From the IMG/VR virus record IMGVR_UViG_2734482533_000011: a stretch of DNA of 6,750 nt; one strand, written 5' to 3'. Made by a program: the position numbers and the translations under genes. This document shows, in pieces, positions 1 through 6,750 of the stretch. The notes beneath the pieces are model-generated. The model had not been told where the DNA came from. It did not search any database and saw only the letters and a program-made list of their open reading frames with translations. Positions within the stretch are counted from its first letter, which is position 1. The number at the start of each line of letters is the position of its first letter. This stretch comes from a virus (Duplodnaviria; Heunggongvirae; Uroviricota; Caudoviricetes).

Positions 1-91
1 GAGCGTTTCCGGATTCTTACACAGCCACTGGATCGGTCAACTGATCCTTAACTGATCGGCATTAGCTCAATGAGCACCTTTTTTCTGTCTG

Positions 92-1676: not shown

Positions 1677-2039
1677 GGGGCTGATTCTGGATTCGACGGG
1701 ATTTGCGAAACCCAAGGTGCATGCCGAGGGGCGGTTGGCCTCGTAAAAAGCCGCAAAAAATAGTCGCAAACGACGAAAACTACGCTTTAGCAGCTTAATA
1801 ACCTGCTTAGAGCCCTCTCTCCCTAGCCTCCGCTCTTAGGACGGGGATCAAGAGAGGTCAAACCCAAAAGAGATCGCGTGGAAGCCCTGCCTGGGGTTGA
1901 AGCGTTAAAACTTAATCAGGCTAGTTTGTTAGTGGCGTGTCCGTCCGCAGCTGGCAAGCGAATGTAAAGACTGACTAAGCATGTAGTACCGAGGATGTAG
2001 GAATTTCGGACGCGGGTTCAACTCCCGCCAGCTCCACCA
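1677..2039 (+). ncRNA. ssrA: tmRNA (SsrA, 10Sa RNA), 363 nt mature form
   Basis: Starts GGGGCTGATTCTGGATTCGACGGG (tRNA-like acceptor 5' half) and ends GGTTCAACTCCCGCCAGCTCCACCA (T-arm plus CCA). It contains the resume codon and tag reading frame. Length is exactly 363 nt. Confidence 0.97.
1766..1798 (+). other. tmRNA tag-peptide reading frame (ANDENYALAA + TAA)
   Basis: GCA AAC GAC GAA AAC TAC GCT TTA GCA GCT TAA read directly from the sequence. The Escherichia-type tag (N at position 5) points to Escherichia/Shigella rather than Salmonella. Confidence 0.9.
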
Positions 2040-2140
2040 CTTTTGACAGGACTGCAACCGGACAGAGACTATAAAAACAGTCACTTACGGACACTGACCA
2101 GACAGTAAGCGGACCAGAAAAAGACAAAAATATACACGCA

Positions 2141-2156
2141 AAATGCACGTGCATTT
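2141..2156. repeat. Perfect 16-bp palindrome AAATGCACGTGCATTT
   Basis: Read directly: AAATGCAC followed by its reverse complement GTGCATTT. It lies between the tmRNA 3' end and the terminator hairpin. Confidence 0.6.
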
Positions 2157-2157
2157 C

Positions 2158-2193
2158 AAAAAAGCCTCTGATTATGAAGTCAGAGGCTTTTCT
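2158..2193. terminator. Bidirectional rho-independent terminator
   Basis: AAAAAA, then GCCTCTGA, an 8-nt loop, TCAGAGGC, then TTTTCT. An 8-bp perfect stem flanked by an A-run on one side and a T-run on the other can terminate the minus-strand tail-fibre operon (ending at 2238) and plus-strand read-through from ssrA. Confidence 0.6.
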
Positions 2194-2237
2194 AGTTGTA
2201 AATAAGGGTAACAATTTAACACGATGCAGCTTACCAA

Positions 2238-2702
2238 TTACGTAACATCAAACGCTCTAATTGTTCCCAAATCCTCCAGACCACTCAGCTCCTCTTTCAT
2301 TTCACGCTGACGGCGATAAATCTCATCGTTGCGATCGACCTGCGCCTGCACCATTGCTGCCGCCAGTTCTTCCAGTTCCGGCATCGACAGTTTCACCTGC
2401 TGATTATCGGCATCATTCCATTCAAACGTGAACGGCTTCGCCTCCTGTTCTGTGCGCCATGCTTCAATTTCCTGACGTCTGGCCTCTCTGGCCGCTTCCA
2501 GCATTTCTGGTGTCACAGTGAATGGGGCTATCTCACCCCATTTGCCACTTTGCAGTTCCTGCCAGATTCGCTGACCCGTCGGTGCGACATCATCAGCGGT
2601 GGCTGTGTAGGGGACTGCCTGGTCCCTGTCGTCAAAAAAAACGTCACAGTCTACTGCGCCACTTTCGGTATAACGGGGATTAATGATTTTTTTAATTTCC
2701 AC
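2238..2702 (-). CDS. Putative tail-fibre assembly/chaperone-like protein partnered with the Stf-like fibre (atypical, family not recognised), about 154 aa
   Basis: ORF immediately downstream of the Stf-like gene. A GTG at 2702..2700 is preceded by GAGGAA with about 6-nt spacing and lies 10 nt after the stf TGA stop; the ORF-track ATG at 2762 would overlap stf by 50 nt. Acidic, helix-rich sequence (…FTVTPEMLEAAREARRQEIEAWRTEQEA…) in the position lambda tfa occupies after stf, but the C-terminus does not match the classical Tfa signature I remember. Confidence 0.6.
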   Translation of the reverse strand: MEIKKIINPRYTESGAVDCDVFFDDRDQAVPYTATADDVAPTGQRIWQELQSGKWGEIAPFTVTPEMLEAAREARRQEIEAWRTEQEAKPFTFEWNDADNQQVKLSMPELEELAAAMVQAQVDRNDEIYRRQREMKEELSGLEDLGTIRAFDVT

Positions 2703-2712
2703 GGTGCATTCC

Positions 2713-3981
2713 TCACGATGTGCGAATAAAAAGCCCGGGCATTGCGCCAGAGACATGAGCATCCGGCACCCCGGACAGGGCGCAATATGACCCCGGTAAT
2801 GAATGCTCTGAACATCCCGTAATGAAAAATTGTGGGGATGCTATATACGTTCCGGTGGGAGTACTGGGCACTGAAATCCCCACCGGTCCCAGTCGTGAGC
2901 CTCTGTATGACTGCCCCCTGACAAGTCTGATGACTTTATCACCGTCAGCTTCTCCCTGGTACGCAGCAATAATCAGCCCGCCAATGTCAGGGTCTCCCCA
3001 TCTGTTGCAGACAGAGCTCGCCACGATTCTGTAAATAATATCTTCTGTGGTTATATTTATTTTCACCCAGCCAGTCAGTCTGGATATGGGCCAGTAGCAG
3101 TAGCGGGTGTGATAAATGGGGCCGTTAATGCCGTAAAAAGTAAGGGATTTGGCTCTGTACCTCGGTTCTGTTGTCTCAGGGCGTGCATCAGTCCACCGGA
3201 TGCTGAGCACCCCTTCAAACCGTGTGTCGGGTATGATGATGTCGTAGGGGCCAGCAACGGAATATTCACCTGGCAGCGCATTCCTTACCCAGGCCAGGAA
3301 ATCACTCTTAGTGTCAAAACGGATAACATCTTCAGGCAGAAAAGCACACCCAAAGCCGAATGCGCCGGGTATCGCCAGACGGCCTTTTGTCCGGTCGTAA
3401 ATGTCGCTCTGTGCTTCCATCGTGGCCGCACTTTTCAGCCCCAGATTATCCCGGGACTTCTGTTGTGCCTTTTCGCCTGCTGCTGCGATTTCAGACAGAT
3501 GGTTAGCCGTTTTCAGAGTGCCGGTCAGCGCAGCATCAATGTCATTTTTGGCCTGCTCTGCTGCGCGGGCATAACCTGCGGCTGCCGCCACATCCTGCGC
3601 CGTCTGCTGTGCGTTTCCGGCTGCGGCCCCGGCGCTCTGCTGCGCCTGCGCCACCATTTCCTCAAAGCGTTTGACGACATCCGGTTTCAGGTCGCCCTCA
3701 TCAGGAGCAATCAGAAAGTCATTCAGCGTGCCGGGCTTTGAGTCGTCGTATACAGCAATGTCGCCAACACAGTACTCGTCGCGCCAGTCCCGTTTCAGAT
3801 ACACGCAATATTTTCCGACCTGTGCCTCAAACGAATATTCACCGTTATTTCCGGTCACTACATCAGCCCTGGTACGCATCACCACTTCTGAGGTGTTTAC
3901 ACGGGATTTCAGAATAATCTGGCATCCGGACATGGGGATGCCTGCGCCATCAGTCAGCGCACCTGATATCACTACAGACAT
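2713..3981 (-). CDS. Side tail fibre protein, lambda Stf-like N-terminal domain with a divergent C-terminal receptor-binding region, 422 aa
   Basis: N-terminus MSVVISGALTDGAGIPMSGCQIILKSRVNTSEVV…YDDSKPGTLNDFLIAPDEGDLKPDVVKRFEEMV parallels lambda Stf (MAVKISGVLKDGTGKPVQNCTIQLKARRNSTTVV…YEDSQPGTLNDFLCAMTEDDARPEVLRRLELMV), followed by an Ala/Gln-rich shaft segment. The C-terminal ~230 aa are not recognisable to me. Confidence 0.85.
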   Translation of the reverse strand: MSVVISGALTDGAGIPMSGCQIILKSRVNTSEVVMRTRADVVTGNNGEYSFEAQVGKYCVYLKRDWRDEYCVGDIAVYDDSKPGTLNDFLIAPDEGDLKPDVVKRFEEMVAQAQQSAGAAAGNAQQTAQDVAAAAGYARAAEQAKNDIDAALTGTLKTANHLSEIAAAGEKAQQKSRDNLGLKSAATMEAQSDIYDRTKGRLAIPGAFGFGCAFLPEDVIRFDTKSDFLAWVRNALPGEYSVAGPYDIIIPDTRFEGVLSIRWTDARPETTEPRYRAKSLTFYGINGPIYHTRYCYWPISRLTGWVKINITTEDIIYRIVASSVCNRWGDPDIGGLIIAAYQGEADGDKVIRLVRGQSYRGSRLGPVGISVPSTPTGTYIASPQFFITGCSEHSLPGSYCALSGVPDAHVSGAMPGLFIRTS

Positions 3982-4004
3982 AGTTTTTCTCGCGATAAAT
4001 TAAA

Positions 4005-4550
4005 TCAGGAAGAACCTTCCGGAGAGACGGACCATTCAATGGCGTTATATGAGGATTTATCAGTGATGGTGCTGAAATCCATCGCCTGCAGCGATTTCGC
4101 GTAAATACGGTACGCTTTCAGTTTTTCCCGGTCTTCGTCGCTGATTAGCCCCAGCAGCAGGTCTTCTTCCCATTCCCCTGTCCGGGCACTGACCTGAGCC
4201 AGAAGGGCATCACGCTCATCTTCCGCTTTGAGTCTGTAGTCAAAGACAAATTCATCATTGCGGTAAAACCAGTAACCCGGCGCGGTAATGCGGCGGTTGG
4301 CGGTAATATCAGGAACTTCAATAACACTGGCGTTACGGGGTTCAATGCCTGTCACATCCTTACCGACCCACACCACGCGCCCGTCTCCGGTGTAAACCAT
4401 TTTTATGGTGTCACTGGCAAAGTTCTTCTGTTCTTCATACCAGTTTTTGCCGTCTTCCGAAAAAAGCCAGGTGACATCATACTGTTTTGTCAGCTGATAT
4501 TATTCCGCGGTTTTCGGATTACCTGCCGTAATATTTTTTAAATGCAACAT
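4005..4550 (-). pseudogene. Tail-fibre assembly protein (Tfa, Caudovirales TAP family) interrupted by an in-frame TAA at 4502..4500
   Basis: ATG at 4550..4548 (2 nt after the fibre-gene stop) opens MLHLKNITAGNPKTAE, then TAA, then the same frame continues YQLTKQYDVTWLFSEDGKNWYEEQKNFASDTIK-MVYTG…VIEVPDITANRR… to a stop at 4005. The N-terminal and central motifs match Tfa/TfaE-type chaperones as I recall them. The ORF track only reports the 3' part (4005..4400). Confidence 0.7.
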
Positions 4551-4552
4551 TG

Positions 4553-5593
4553 TTAAATACTCGCTACGTTATACCAGGTGCCATTAATCAGTTTTTGCAG
4601 CGGTCGGTAATACACGCCGTTGACGTTATCCGCTGAGTTACGGCCGGTATCCGATATCGATATCCCTGACAGCCCGTGTCCCGAAGGTGAGCGAAATGTC
4701 CACGAAACGGTGTTACTGCCGGGGGGGTAATACATTTCATAACCATACCGCACATCCTGCACGCCACCATTTCGCTGCTGGTAACGGGCATCAAAGTTTC
4801 CGTAGTCTGACGGTGTTACCCGTCCTGTAACGTTTACAGCTTTATTACTCTGGATACTGCCACTCTGAAAACGCAACACATGCACGCTATTGGCATAAAC
4901 ATCCAGCAGGCCATCACCATTCTGTTTGAATCCGGTGTCATTATCACCAAGAACAATTGAATTCCCCCCCAGGGCGTTCTGAACGCCGATACCCAGCGCA
5001 CCATTGACCTGCGAACCACCGCCAACAGACACTTTATGCGACATGGATATTTCACCCGTCCGCAGATTAATGGTGAACGGGCGCAGGGGACCAATATCGC
5101 CATTTTCCCCCTGACCTTCACTGGTGGGAATAAGGTGCAGGCACTCTTCCGAACGACGAAAAATCAGGCCAAAAGCTTCGTTGAAAATCCTCAGCGCATT
5201 AACACCACGGATTTTCAGCTCTCCGGTCATGGTGTCGCCATCACGCTGAACGGCATTTTTTGCCTTATCCACCGTGGGTTTTAATCCGAGGTTTTCAACA
5301 GCCTCATCCCTGTCTTCCACATCCGAAAGGTTATTTTTTATCAGCAATGCCTCTTCGTTAATTGCACCGCCCACCAGCAATAATATAGCCTTATATAGCT
5401 GGTCGTGTTCTTCTTTATTCAGTTCTATCCCGGCCTTCTCAATGACACCACAGATTTCCTCCTGAATGGCATTCCACATGGCACTGTTCAGCCAGGTAGC
5501 AAGACGTCCTGTGCGAAGATTTCCGTCAGTAAATCCGTTCTTACCCGGACCAAACTTATCTTTTACCGCAGTCAGCGTATCAATCCTGTGCAT
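4553..5593 (-). CDS. Tail fibre protein, Mu S / P2 gpH-type C-terminal receptor-binding region, about 346 aa
   Basis: C-terminal segment …NALGGNSIVLGDNDTGFKQNGDGLLDVYANS…YGNFDARY…YRPLQKLINGTWYNVASI closely parallels the P2 gpH / Mu S-type fibre C-terminus as I remember it. Probable start is the ATG at 5593 (GAGGA 5 nt upstream); the ORF-track start at 5605 lacks an SD. Overlaps the upstream gene stop. Confidence 0.85.
   Translation of the reverse strand: MHRIDTLTAVKDKFGPGKNGFTDGNLRTGRLATWLNSAMWNAIQEEICGVIEKAGIELNKEEHDQLYKAILLLVGGAINEEALLIKNNLSDVEDRDEAVENLGLKPTVDKAKNAVQRDGDTMTGELKIRGVNALRIFNEAFGLIFRRSEECLHLIPTSEGQGENGDIGPLRPFTINLRTGEISMSHKVSVGGGSQVNGALGIGVQNALGGNSIVLGDNDTGFKQNGDGLLDVYANSVHVLRFQSGSIQSNKAVNVTGRVTPSDYGNFDARYQQRNGGVQDVRYGYEMYYPPGSNTVSWTFRSPSGHGLSGISISDTGRNSADNVNGVYYRPLQKLINGTWYNVASI
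5278..5303 (-). other. gix/hix-like recombination half-site inside the tail-fibre gene (possible relic crossover site)
   Basis: Minus strand reads CTGTTGAAAACC-TC-GGATTAAAACCC. The left arm and central TC resemble Hin/Gin/Pin sites (hixL TTCTTGAAAACC, gix core AAAACCTCGG) as I recall them; the right arm is a poor match. Lies about 100 codons into the fibre gene. Confidence 0.3.
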
Positions 5594-6170
5594 CTTCATC
5601 CTCATCTGGATAGGAAAATAAAACGACGGTGTGTGACGGACATAATTTATTAATCACGCACTCCGCAACCGTATCCCCCCACGTCCGGATCGGTGTGTTG
5701 CAGGCGTCCGTGCATGTCTGCCACTGAGCACCGGCATCCATCGGCAACGTCACACGCCAGAAATAACGCCAGCGATCTCCCCATTCCGGATCGGGGCTTG
5801 CATCCAAGTGCTGGAACTGTTCGATCGTTACGCCGGTATATCCCAGCGCCTCAAGCTGATCCAGGAAGAACTGCTCATTTATGCCACCAGCCACATTGGC
5901 TTTTGCTTCAAGACGTTGCTGACGCTGGCGTAATGTCTGGGTTCCGACAGGGGAACAGGAATCAGGTAAACCATACAATTCTTCATAACGTTCAATCAGC
6001 TCTGTGGACTGACCGGGATCGATTTCAATCACCAGTTCATCAGCCCGCTGGTGAACACGCACAAGCGATGGTGCCAGACCGTCAAGTACACCGTCGGTAT
6101 CTGACCATGCAGGCCCCGGCGGCATCAGTCCGTACAGCAGCTTTGTATAATCATCCTGTAACGAATCCAT
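5580..6170 (-). CDS. Phage tail/baseplate-associated protein, DUF2313 family (YmfQ / Mu gp48-like), 196 aa
   Basis: 196-aa ORF sited between the baseplate J-like gene and the tail fibre gene, the conserved position of Mu gp48 / e14 YmfQ-type genes. Its ATG overlaps the upstream stop (TAATG), indicating translational coupling. Confidence 0.8.
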   Translation of the reverse strand: MDSLQDDYTKLLYGLMPPGPAWSDTDGVLDGLAPSLVRVHQRADELVIEIDPGQSTELIERYEELYGLPDSCSPVGTQTLRQRQQRLEAKANVAGGINEQFFLDQLEALGYTGVTIEQFQHLDASPDPEWGDRWRYFWRVTLPMDAGAQWQTCTDACNTPIRTWGDTVAECVINKLCPSHTVVLFSYPDEDEDAQD

Positions 6171-6682
6171 TATTTACTCCTTGCCGGGTCATAAGCCTGC
6201 CAGGTGATCTCGCCGAGCACCGGAAGCTCGGTCTCCCCCAGGTCAATATCCGATGAAGGGACGATTAACCGGTGGGCCACTTCACCAGCAGACAAACTGA
6301 TGGCCTCACTGATTCTGGACAGATACATACGCCCCTCTGGCACACCATCCCGTAACATCAGTGCATTCAGCTCTGCTTTTATTGCAGTCCTGATCTGCGG
6401 TGTGTCTTTCGATAATGCAATCGTCATCGGGATGACTTTTTCTGTGGCACCGAATACATACAATCCGCTTCCGGCAACAGGTGCCAGAGGAAGGATGTGG
6501 TCCCTGACTGCGTTAATCACGCTTTCATCCGGGGCCGGGCGTTCCGGATCGTTTGTCGCCACCATCACGCCAACCGTTCCAGTGCCTTTCCAGTGTCTGA
6601 AAGTCCATGCACGGTTAATACCCTGAACTTCTTTCGCCCAGATAACATAATCAGGGTCTGCGCCCCCGGTGATGCTGCCAAC
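6170..6682 (-). CDS. Baseplate J-like protein (Mu gp47 / P2 gpJ family), C-terminal portion; the 5' part appears disrupted
   Basis: The frame is open from 6682 down to the stop at 6170 and encodes …GADPDYVIWAKEVQGINRAWTF…VMVATNDPERP…, reminiscent of the central and C-terminal regions of baseplate J proteins. An in-frame TAA sits at 6685..6683 and the other two minus-strand frames are also blocked between about 6651 and 6693, so the full-length gene is not intact in this window. The ORF track starts it at GTG 6568. Confidence 0.65.
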   Translation of the reverse strand, partial: VGSITGGADPDYVIWAKEVQGINRAWTFRHWKGTGTVGVMVATNDPERPAPDESVINAVRDHILPLAPVAGSGLYVFGATEKVIPMTIALSKDTPQIRTAIKAELNALMLRDGVPEGRMYLSRISEAISLSAGEVAHRLIVPSSDIDLGETELPVLGEITWQAYDPARSK

Positions 6683-6750
6683 TTACTGATTTAGTGTATG
6701 ATGGTGTTTTTGAGGTGCTCCAGTGGCTTCTGTTTCTATCAGCTGTCCCT

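What the first reader, a model, noticed from the sequence alone, without database searches (positions are those of the whole stretch)
2010..2240. Integration junction at the tmRNA 3' end with the tail-fibre end, not an integrase, adjacent
The sequence immediately after the tmRNA CCA does not match the native E. coli K-12 flank as I recall it (K-12 carries CP4-57 with intA here). Instead a terminator and the last gene of a tail-fibre operon lie within about 200 bp. This means ssrA is occupied by a different element and the integrase, if present, is at the distal end. Together with the truncated baseplate gene and the broken Tfa, it may be a short remnant rather than a full prophage.
Basis: partly seen in the sequence, partly recalled or inferred. 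Interest (0 to 1): 0.45.

Follow-up and report, generated by a model that had tools for sequence, protein, structure and literature searches.

The report
Decayed prophage end at tmRNA gene
The DNA just after the tmRNA gene is the tail-fibre end of a decayed tailed prophage of Shigella sonnei, broken up by insertion sequences, that integrated into the gene's 3' end; this arrangement is ordinary and already documented.

Summary
ssrA ends at 2039. K-12 and most of 5,426 E. coli genomes stop matching there. A bidirectional terminator (2158-2193) and the stop codon of a DUF4376 late gene (2238) follow within 200 bp.

Bases 2005-2214 are one half of a phage attachment module. In the free phage LMessi the same sequence is contiguous: integrase, then a 35-nt ssrA 3' copy, then this arm, then tail-fibre genes. 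A 43.6-kb E. coli relative (C311) has excisionase, integrase and a second ssrA 3' copy at its far end. So "integrase at the distal end" holds for intact relatives.

The "short remnant" reading is only partly right. The window matches Shigella sonnei genomes at 99.9-100%. There the baseplate J gene is split by a simple IS1 insertion, not truncated. Tail genes continue for at least another 9 kb. One sister record reaches a prohead-protease fragment joined by an IS3-family element to the sheath gene. The tail-fibre assembly gene carries a nonsense codon. The element is therefore a decayed prophage of at least about 16.7 kb. Its distal end in S. sonnei could not be reached.

Integration at this 25-bp ssrA core is experimentally documented (Citrobacter phage PhiNP; prophage CP-1639). 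Interest is low.

The parts
1677..2039 (+). ssrA (tmRNA) gene, intact. Its last ~23-27 nt are phage-derived after integration but identical to the host sequence.
   Evidence: ARAGORN; Rfam RF00023, 295.8 bits, full length.
2005..2039 (+). att identity block: 35 nt of the ssrA 3' end that the phage also carries in its attP. The phage copies differ only at 2012 (A instead of G).
   Evidence: LMessi attP, the L006 tandem junction and the C311 distal junction all read TTCGGACACGGGTTCAACTCCCGCCAGCTCCACCA. The core 2015-2039 equals the published 25-bp PhiNP attP.
2017..2023 (+). T-loop TTCAACT flanked by the T-stem dyad (2012-2016 / 2024-2028): the inferred strand-exchange (overlap) region.
   Evidence: Inference. 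Displaced or phage-borne copies differ from intact ssrA at 2012 (E. coli, Shigella) or 2015 (Salmonella L188), so the crossover lies 3' of 2015. The exact position was not tested.
2040..2157 (+). Tail-fibre-side arm of the phage attP. It has a conserved box AGGACTGCAACCGGACAG (2048-2065), four RGAC motifs phased at 11 bp (2089, 2100, 2111, 2122) and two ATRCAC motifs 11 bp apart (2132, 2143). These are presumed binding sites for the integrase arm domain and accessory proteins.
   Evidence: Contiguous with integrase and core in free phage LMessi. Conserved in 14 distinct arms from several genera. The phased patterns appeared in 0 of 200 shuffles. The same motif set is in the integrase-side arms. 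Binding is inferred.
2158..2193 (.). Bidirectional intrinsic terminator hairpin. On the - strand it ends the phage late (tail-fibre) operon. On the + strand it is the first terminator after ssrA.
   Evidence: dG -21.4 / -20.6 kcal/mol, z -4.7 / -6.2. The stem is kept through compensatory changes across relatives.
2194..2214 (.). Conserved last stretch of the att module (CTAGTTGTAAATAAGGGTAACAA). Similarity among different phage types ends here.
2238..2762 (-). DUF4376 gene, the last gene of the late operon. It has a 99-bp in-frame deletion relative to sister S. sonnei genomes (174 vs 207 aa).
   Evidence: Pfam.
2713..3981 (-). Tail-fibre protein (phage_tail_N N-terminus, mosaic C-terminus).
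   Evidence: Pfam E 2e-63; comparison with the C311 fibre.
4005..4550 (-). Tail-fibre assembly gene (Caudo_TAP), inactivated by a CAA-to-TAA nonsense codon at 4500-4502.
4553..5605 (-). Tail-fibre / phage tail protein.
   Evidence: annotation of the homologue in C311.
5580..6170 (-). Mu gp48 / YmfQ-like baseplate protein.
   Evidence: Pfam E 2e-25.
6170..6668 (-). C-terminal part of the baseplate J gene, split by IS1.
   Evidence: Pfam. The N-terminal part lies beyond the IS1 in sister genomes. The junction has a 10-bp duplication.
6669..6750 (.). End of an IS1 copy inserted in baseplate J.
   Evidence: The IS1 terminal repeat GGTGATGCTGCCAACTTACTGAT is read directly. IS1 transposase genes sit at this place in sister genomes.

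Best explanation
Bases 2005-2214 are the ssrA-proximal junction of a temperate myovirus prophage. Its tail and baseplate genes resemble phiP27 and Mu. It integrated into the 3' end of the tmRNA gene by tyrosine-integrase site-specific recombination. The phage attP carries a copy of the last 35 nt of ssrA, so integration rebuilds an intact gene. In the phage genome the order is integrase (reading toward the core), integrase-side arm, core, tail-side arm with terminator, then the end of the tail-fibre operon. After recombination, inferred to occur in or just 3' of the T-loop, the tail-side arm and late operon abut the intact ssrA. Excisionase, integrase and a displaced ssrA 3' fragment end up at the far boundary. 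The heterobivalent integrase (Arm-DNA-bind_2 N-terminal domain plus catalytic domain) is inferred to bind the phased repeats in both arms. The phage hairpin at 2158-2193 ends the late operon and, in the lysogen, is the first terminator downstream of ssrA. In this Shigella sonnei lineage the prophage is dead. IS1 splits baseplate J, another IS lies between the tape-measure and DNA-circularisation genes, and the tail-fibre assembly gene has a nonsense codon. In one sister record an IS3-family element joins a prohead-protease fragment to the sheath gene, removing the capsid-to-tail-terminator genes. Shown: the junction, its phage origin, the orientation, the distal integrase and repeat in relatives, and the decay. 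Inferred: the exact crossover point, protein binding to the repeats, and terminator use by ssrA.
For: 1) Free phage LMessi carries integrase, then TTCGGACACGGGTTCAACTCCCGCCAGCTCCACCA, then a homologue of window 2040-2214, then a DinI-like ORF (read from the sequence) and a tail-fibre gene, all contiguous. 2) E. coli C311 has a 43.6-kb prophage. Its tail-fibre end sits at ssrA with the same arm. At the far end are excisionase, a 394-aa integrase and a perfect 26-nt ssrA 3' repeat. That integrase is 89% identical to LMessi's and has Arm-DNA-bind_2 plus Phage_integrase domains. 3) The same arm follows ssrA in prophages with three different tail types: C311 (Mu-like baseplate), 95JB1 and CP-1639 (lambdoid), and A36 (P2-like). 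It also lies 8 nt after the tmRNA gene in 7 of 10 other Enterobacterales species hit. 4) Intact ssrA always has G at 2012, while phage-borne or displaced copies have A. A Salmonella relative differs at 2015. 5) Phased RGAC and ATRCAC repeats occur in both arms, with 0 of 200 shuffles matching, and the arm is conserved across genera. 6) Hairpin energetics and compensatory changes support the terminator. 7) The window is 99.9-100% identical to S. sonnei chromosomes, including strain 866. There the tail genes continue past the IS1, the IS1 has a 10-bp duplication, and the tfa gene has a nonsense codon. 8) The published PhiNP attP is the same 25-bp ssrA core and was validated in E. coli K-12. ssrA is a listed Stx-phage integration site.
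Against: The integrase and the distal ssrA repeat were not located in the source lineage; the loci available stop in the sheath gene or at the protease fragment. The crossover position rests on one or two diagnostic mismatches plus the tRNA-integration paradigm, not on an experiment. No protein binding was tested. The protease-IS-sheath deletion was seen in a single IMG/VR provirus record (L028), which may not represent the window's own strain. A Klebsiella integrase 84% identical to C311's has no ssrA fragment within 3 kb, so membership of this integrase clade does not by itself prove ssrA targeting.
Confidence: 0.9

Rival explanations
1. The S. sonnei element is still bounded by its own integrase and a distal ssrA repeat further along the chromosome. 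On this view it is a full-length but IS-disrupted prophage, not a remnant that has lost its integrase side.
For: Intact relatives have this layout. The element reaches at least the prohead protease gene.
Against: None of the best 120 integrase homologues that carry a source name is named Shigella, though many carry no name (weak). The IMG/VR provirus record starts exactly at the protease gene rather than including the portal and terminase (weak). S. sonnei shows IS-mediated deletion and inversion nearby.
Confidence: 0.35
2. It is a short remnant: little more than the tail-fibre genes seen in the window survives next to ssrA.
For: The window itself ends in an IS1 inside baseplate J, and the tail-fibre assembly gene is broken.
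Against: In eight near-identical genomes the other half of baseplate J and about 9 kb of further tail genes follow the IS1. The IS1 has a target duplication, so it is a simple insertion.
Confidence: 0.04
3. The sequence after 2039 is native chromosome rather than a mobile element.
For: None found.
Against: Most of 5,426 E. coli genomes diverge exactly at the CCA end. The segment is part of a free phage genome next to its integrase.
Confidence: 0.01
4. The tail-fibre end came to lie next to ssrA through a secondary rearrangement, such as an IS-mediated inversion or deletion of an integrase-proximal end, and not through the integration orientation itself.
For: S. sonnei is rich in IS elements, and an IS4-associated inversion lies just left of the window.
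Against: The same junction, base for base in register, occurs in IS-free E. coli prophages and in seven other species. It also matches the gene order in the free phage.
Confidence: 0.02

Closest known systems
Citrobacter rodentium temperate myovirus PhiNP (PMC6456863)
   Same: Its experimentally mapped attP/attB is the 25-bp ssrA 3' end GGTTCAACTCCCGCCAGCTCCACCA, identical to window 2015-2039. Integration duplicates it and rebuilds ssrA, also in E. coli K-12.
   Different: Whether PhiNP's integrase, arms and tail genes are homologous to those here was not tested.
Cryptic Stx1 prophage CP-1639 (AJ304858) and the ssrA prophage of E. coli 95JB1
   Same: They are integrated at ssrA in the same orientation. 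The tail-side arm is 84% identical over window 1990-2214, and tail-fibre genes point toward ssrA.
   Different: They have lambdoid siphovirus tail genes (J, Lom) and a dinI gene between the arm and the fibres. The element here has a contractile tail with a Mu-like baseplate.
Escherichia phage LMessi (PP925823)
   Same: It is a free phage genome with the same att module uninterrupted. Its integrase is 89% identical to that of the full-length E. coli relative.
   Different: It has a different structural gene set. It is not a prophage.
Stx2e phage phiP27
   Same: It has the related DUF4376 and tail-fibre genes (79% nucleotide identity). S. sonnei 866 prophages were reported to show partial homology to phiP27.
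   Different: No match to the att arm was found. From memory, phiP27 integrates in yecE with a different integrase; this was not tested here.
CP4-57 of E. coli K-12 and other P4-type islands at ssrA
   Same: They use the same target gene. Such islands with Arm-DNA-bind_3 integrases lie just beyond the displaced ssrA fragment in C311, Salmonella and E. coli loci.
   Different: In them the integrase gene directly follows ssrA and there are no tail genes. K-12 similarity to the window stops at 2039.
Lambda Int/attP paradigm
   Same: The integrase reads toward attP, which lies between int and the end of the late region. The integrase is heterobivalent with an arm-binding domain, and both arms carry repeated sites. 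A hairpin lies beyond attP.
   Different: The target is a tmRNA gene rather than an intergenic site. The arm-domain family and the repeat sequences differ. Function was not tested.

Membership tests
Prophage integrated in a tRNA/tmRNA gene by a tyrosine integrase | An intact t(m)RNA gene whose 3' end abuts foreign DNA | tested here: met
Prophage integrated in a tRNA/tmRNA gene by a tyrosine integrase | The junction sequence is contiguous with an integrase gene and a copy of the gene's 3' end in the unintegrated element (attP) | tested here: met
   Free phage LMessi.
Prophage integrated in a tRNA/tmRNA gene by a tyrosine integrase | A direct repeat of the gene's 3' end at the other boundary | tested here: inconclusive
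   Met in the relative C311 (26 nt perfect, about 35 nt with mismatches) and at the tandem junction in L006. Not present in the window, and the distal boundary of the S. sonnei element was not reached.
Prophage integrated in a tRNA/tmRNA gene by a tyrosine integrase | A tyrosine integrase encoded inside the element | tested here: inconclusive
   Present in C311, LMessi and the second prophage of L006. None in the window or in about 16.7 kb of the S. sonnei element examined.
Prophage integrated in a tRNA/tmRNA gene by a tyrosine integrase | Excision and integration activity | not testable with these tools
   Published for PhiNP at the same 25-bp core.
Contractile-tail phage with a Mu-like baseplate (phiP27-like late region) | Baseplate J, Mu gp48-like, gp46, gp45, gp44-like, DNA-circularisation, tape-measure, tube and sheath genes in order | tested here: met
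   Pfam on window ORFs and precomputed Pfam on sister genomes.
CP4-57 / P4-type integrase island at ssrA | A P4-type integrase gene directly downstream of ssrA | tested here: not met
   The first gene after ssrA is DUF4376 on the opposite strand. K-12 similarity ends at 2039.

The most novel reading that the evidence does not exclude
The conserved hairpin at 2158-2193 and the phased RGAC/ATRCAC repeat module present in both att arms may form an uncharacterised, portable control unit of the Arm-DNA-bind_2 (DUF3596) ssrA integrases. The hairpin would end the late operon. In the lysogen it would end pre-tmRNA transcription. In the free phage it would lie downstream of int across attP, like lambda sib, so that integration uncouples int mRNA from it (retroregulation). 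The dead S. sonnei prophage would also keep supplying a working ssrA 3' end and a usable attB for newcomers, as the tandem array in L006 suggests.
Probability: 0.25. Interest if true: 0.3.

Novelty: already known. Interest (0 to 1): 0.12.

Why it matters
It matters little beyond annotation. The result places the prophage boundary at ssrA to the base. It shows that the "truncated" genes result from IS insertion and point mutation in a Shigella sonnei lineage. It also shows that one int-att module is shared by phages with three different tail types across several Enterobacterales genera. The repeat architecture of the att arms could guide a footprinting study of this integrase clade, which as far as I know has not been characterised biochemically.

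Tried and rejected
1) I tried to walk to the distal end of the S. sonnei prophage. A search with the C311 integrase returned no exact S. sonnei protein usable for look-up. A search with the S. sonnei sheath protein returned a 99% representative and only partial Shigella entries on short contigs. IMG/VR scans gave one sister provirus that starts at the protease fragment. The distal end remains unknown.

2) The consensus terminator scan did not report the 2158-2193 hairpin. Folding did.

3) Rfam found no RNA family in 2040-2240 other than the tmRNA.

4) The paper I remember as "Traffic at the tmRNA gene" (Williams 2003) is not held in the library under the id I tried. Statements about sublocation classes are therefore from memory only.

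5) The native-flank, CP4-57-like and rearrangement explanations were rejected (see rivals).

6) The ORF at 1975-2214 (-) that overlaps the att arm was treated as non-coding. Similar ORFs are annotated as hypothetical in LMessi. This was not tested further.

Full report
**What is in the window.** ARAGORN and Rfam place an intact tmRNA gene at 1677-2039 on the + strand. It is preceded by yfjF, ratA and smpB.

Downstream, all on the - strand, lie:
- a DUF4376 gene (2238-2762);
- a prophage tail-fibre gene (2713-3981);
- a tail-fibre assembly gene (4005-4550);
- a second fibre gene (4553-5605);
- a Mu gp48/YmfQ-like gene (5580-6170);
- the C-terminal part of baseplate J (6170-6668).

The last 82 bases (6669-6750) are an IS1 end, and the first 64 are the end of an IS4-type element. 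A strong hairpin at 2158-2193 has an A-tract before it and a T-tract after it. It folds at about -21 kcal/mol on either strand (z -4.7 and -6.2). The CCA end and the stop codon of the last late gene are 198 nt apart, with a terminator between them.

**Is the flank foreign?** A 251-bp query spanning the junction hit all 5,426 complete E. coli genomes. In most of them, including K-12 strains, the match stops at window 2039, the CCA end. Only 462 genomes carry at least 80% of the query.

The decisive result is the free phage LMessi. Its genome reads in one piece: integrase gene, about 130 bp, TTCGGACACGGGTTCAACTCCCGCCAGCTCCACCA, a homologue of window 2040-2214 including the hairpin, then a DinI-like ORF (read from the sequence) and a tail-fibre gene on the opposite strand. 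Window 2005-2214 is therefore one half of a phage attP, namely the core plus the arm on the late-gene side.

**Orientation and the distal end.** E. coli C311 carries the closest full-length relative in that collection. It covers 80% of the window at 94% identity, and no other E. coli genome reached 80%.

There the tail-fibre end abuts ssrA exactly as in the window. The prophage runs 43.6 kb through baseplate, tail, head, lysis, replication and repressor genes to an excisionase and a 394-aa integrase. It ends at a perfect 26-nt copy of the ssrA 3' end, or about 35 nt allowing mismatches.

Beyond that fragment a separate island with a P4-type integrase begins, so the locus is a tandem array. The integrase has Arm-DNA-bind_2, SAM-like and catalytic domains and is 89% identical to LMessi's.

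The same late-side arm follows ssrA in prophages with quite different tails:
- lambdoid tails in 95JB1 and in the published cryptic Stx1 prophage CP-1639;
- a P2-like tail in strain A36.

The arm also sits 8 nt after the tmRNA gene in 7 of 10 other Enterobacterales species representatives that contain it. "Integrase at the distal end" is thus the normal layout of this int-att module.

**Where the strands cross.** Every intact ssrA has G at 2012, the first base of the T-stem. Every phage-borne or displaced copy has A there: LMessi attP, the C311 distal junction and the tandem junction in L006. A Salmonella relative differs instead at 2015.

The exchange must therefore lie 3' of 2015. The T-loop TTCAACT (2017-2023), flanked by the T-stem dyad, is the obvious candidate overlap region. 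This is an inference from the sequence and from what I recall of tRNA-gene integration. It was not tested.

The 25-bp core published for the Citrobacter myovirus PhiNP is identical to window 2015-2039. That core was validated by lysogenising E. coli K-12.

**Arm architecture.** The late-side arm contains four RGAC motifs spaced exactly 11 bp apart (2089, 2100, 2111, 2122). Two ATRCAC motifs 11 bp apart follow (2132, 2143). Neither phased pattern occurs in any of 200 shuffles of the window.

The integrase-side arms of LMessi, C311, a Salmonella prophage and another E. coli prophage show the same set. Each has three phased RGAY-type motifs followed by two phased RTRCAC motifs (ATGCAC, ATACAC or GTGCAC) upstream of the core.

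Fourteen distinct late-side arms from several genera are nearly invariant at these motifs. They keep the hairpin through compensatory changes, for example GCCTCTGA/TCAGAGGC versus CCCCAGA/TCTGGGG. This is what binding sites for an integrase arm domain and accessory factors, plus a functional terminator, would look like. Which protein binds which repeat is unknown.

**How decayed, and how long?** The window is 100% identical over 1-2415 and 99.9% over 2414-6750 to several chromosomes of about 4.8 Mb. One of them, CP022672, is Shigella sonnei strain 866.

In those genomes the IS1 is a simple insertion flanked by a 10-bp duplication. Beyond it come the N-terminal part of baseplate J, then gp46, gp45 and gp44-like genes, the DNA-circularisation gene, another IS, the tape-measure gene, chaperone, tube and sheath.

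An IMG/VR provirus that is 100% identical to strain 866 over the 3.5 kb spanning sheath to tape measure extends 2.5 kb further. It shows the first 120 codons of a prohead protease joined by an IS3-family element to the sheath gene. Capsid, connector and tail-terminator genes are therefore missing in that record.

The tail-fibre assembly gene has a CAA-to-TAA change at codon 17, shared with strain 866. The element is a dead prophage of at least about 16.7 kb, not a short stub. I could not reach its far end. Whether integrase and the distal att site survive in S. sonnei therefore stays open.

**Comparison with what is known.** Integration of temperate phages and islands into the 3' end of ssrA is well documented:
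- PhiNP, with an experimentally mapped attP;
- CP-1639 and Stx phages of O111;
- CP4-57 in K-12.

The present junction belongs to the same int-att module as CP-1639 and LMessi. It is attached to a phiP27-like late region, a kind of prophage already noted in S. sonnei 866. Nothing here departs from the lambda-style logic of an attP lying between int and the end of the late operon. I rate it as already known and of low interest.

The one mildly open point is the function of the conserved hairpin and the phased repeats. One possibility is a lambda sib-like role for the hairpin, across attP from int.

Noticed in passing
window 1-64; L007-L010 and L012 about 16270-17620: The window starts with the end of an IS4-type element next to yfjF. 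In sister S. sonnei genomes an IS4 transposase gene follows, then raiA-pheA-tyrA instead of bamE-recN. This implies an inversion of the roughly 16-kb raiA-to-bamE segment. L011 keeps the ancestral order.
   Followed up: partly
window 2414/2415 (inside the DUF4376 gene): There is a 99-bp in-frame deletion (33 aa) relative to at least seven of eight sister S. sonnei loci. The protein is 174 aa instead of 207 aa.
   Followed up: yes
window 4500-4502: A nonsense codon (CAA to TAA, codon 17) lies in the tail-fibre assembly gene. It is shared with S. sonnei 866 and absent in E. coli C311.
   Followed up: yes
window 2713-2762: The tail-fibre ORF overlaps the start of the DUF4376 ORF by 50 nt. The fibre is 422 aa versus 759 aa in C311, and only the first ~110 aa are closely related. 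This is a mosaic or shortened fibre.
   Followed up: partly
L006 14000-17050 (CP032523.1); IMG/VR contig of L028 (61.7 kb): In one sister genome a second, apparently complete prophage sits between ssrA and the old prophage, separated from it by a 38-nt ssrA fragment. Its integrase is 69% identical to C311's. The site stayed usable after the first prophage decayed.
   Followed up: partly
L023 7040-7160 (Enterobacter chuandaensis); L019 (Erwinia psidii): The same late-side arm occurs without a recognisable ssrA fragment in L023, and with a degenerate one (AAGTTCAACTCCCGCCAGCCCAC) in L019. These may be secondary-site or decayed junctions.
   Followed up: no
L185-L187 (Klebsiella): An integrase 84% identical to the C311 ssrA integrase has no ssrA 3' fragment within 3 kb. 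It is followed by FAD-binding, LysR and arginase genes, so this branch of the family may use another target.
   Followed up: no
hit H5 (NZ_CP065613.1, 625710-630416): The same tail-fibre/baseplate block (97.9% identity, window 2225-6667) occurs in an E. coli genome without the att arm. The late region is apparently combined with a different integration module there.
   Followed up: no
L012 3592-4572 versus L005, L007-L010 about 3600-4300: The site between the tape-measure and DNA-circularisation genes holds an IS1 in most sister genomes but a different DDE_Tnp_1-family element (IS5-like, by size and Pfam) in strain 866.
   Followed up: no
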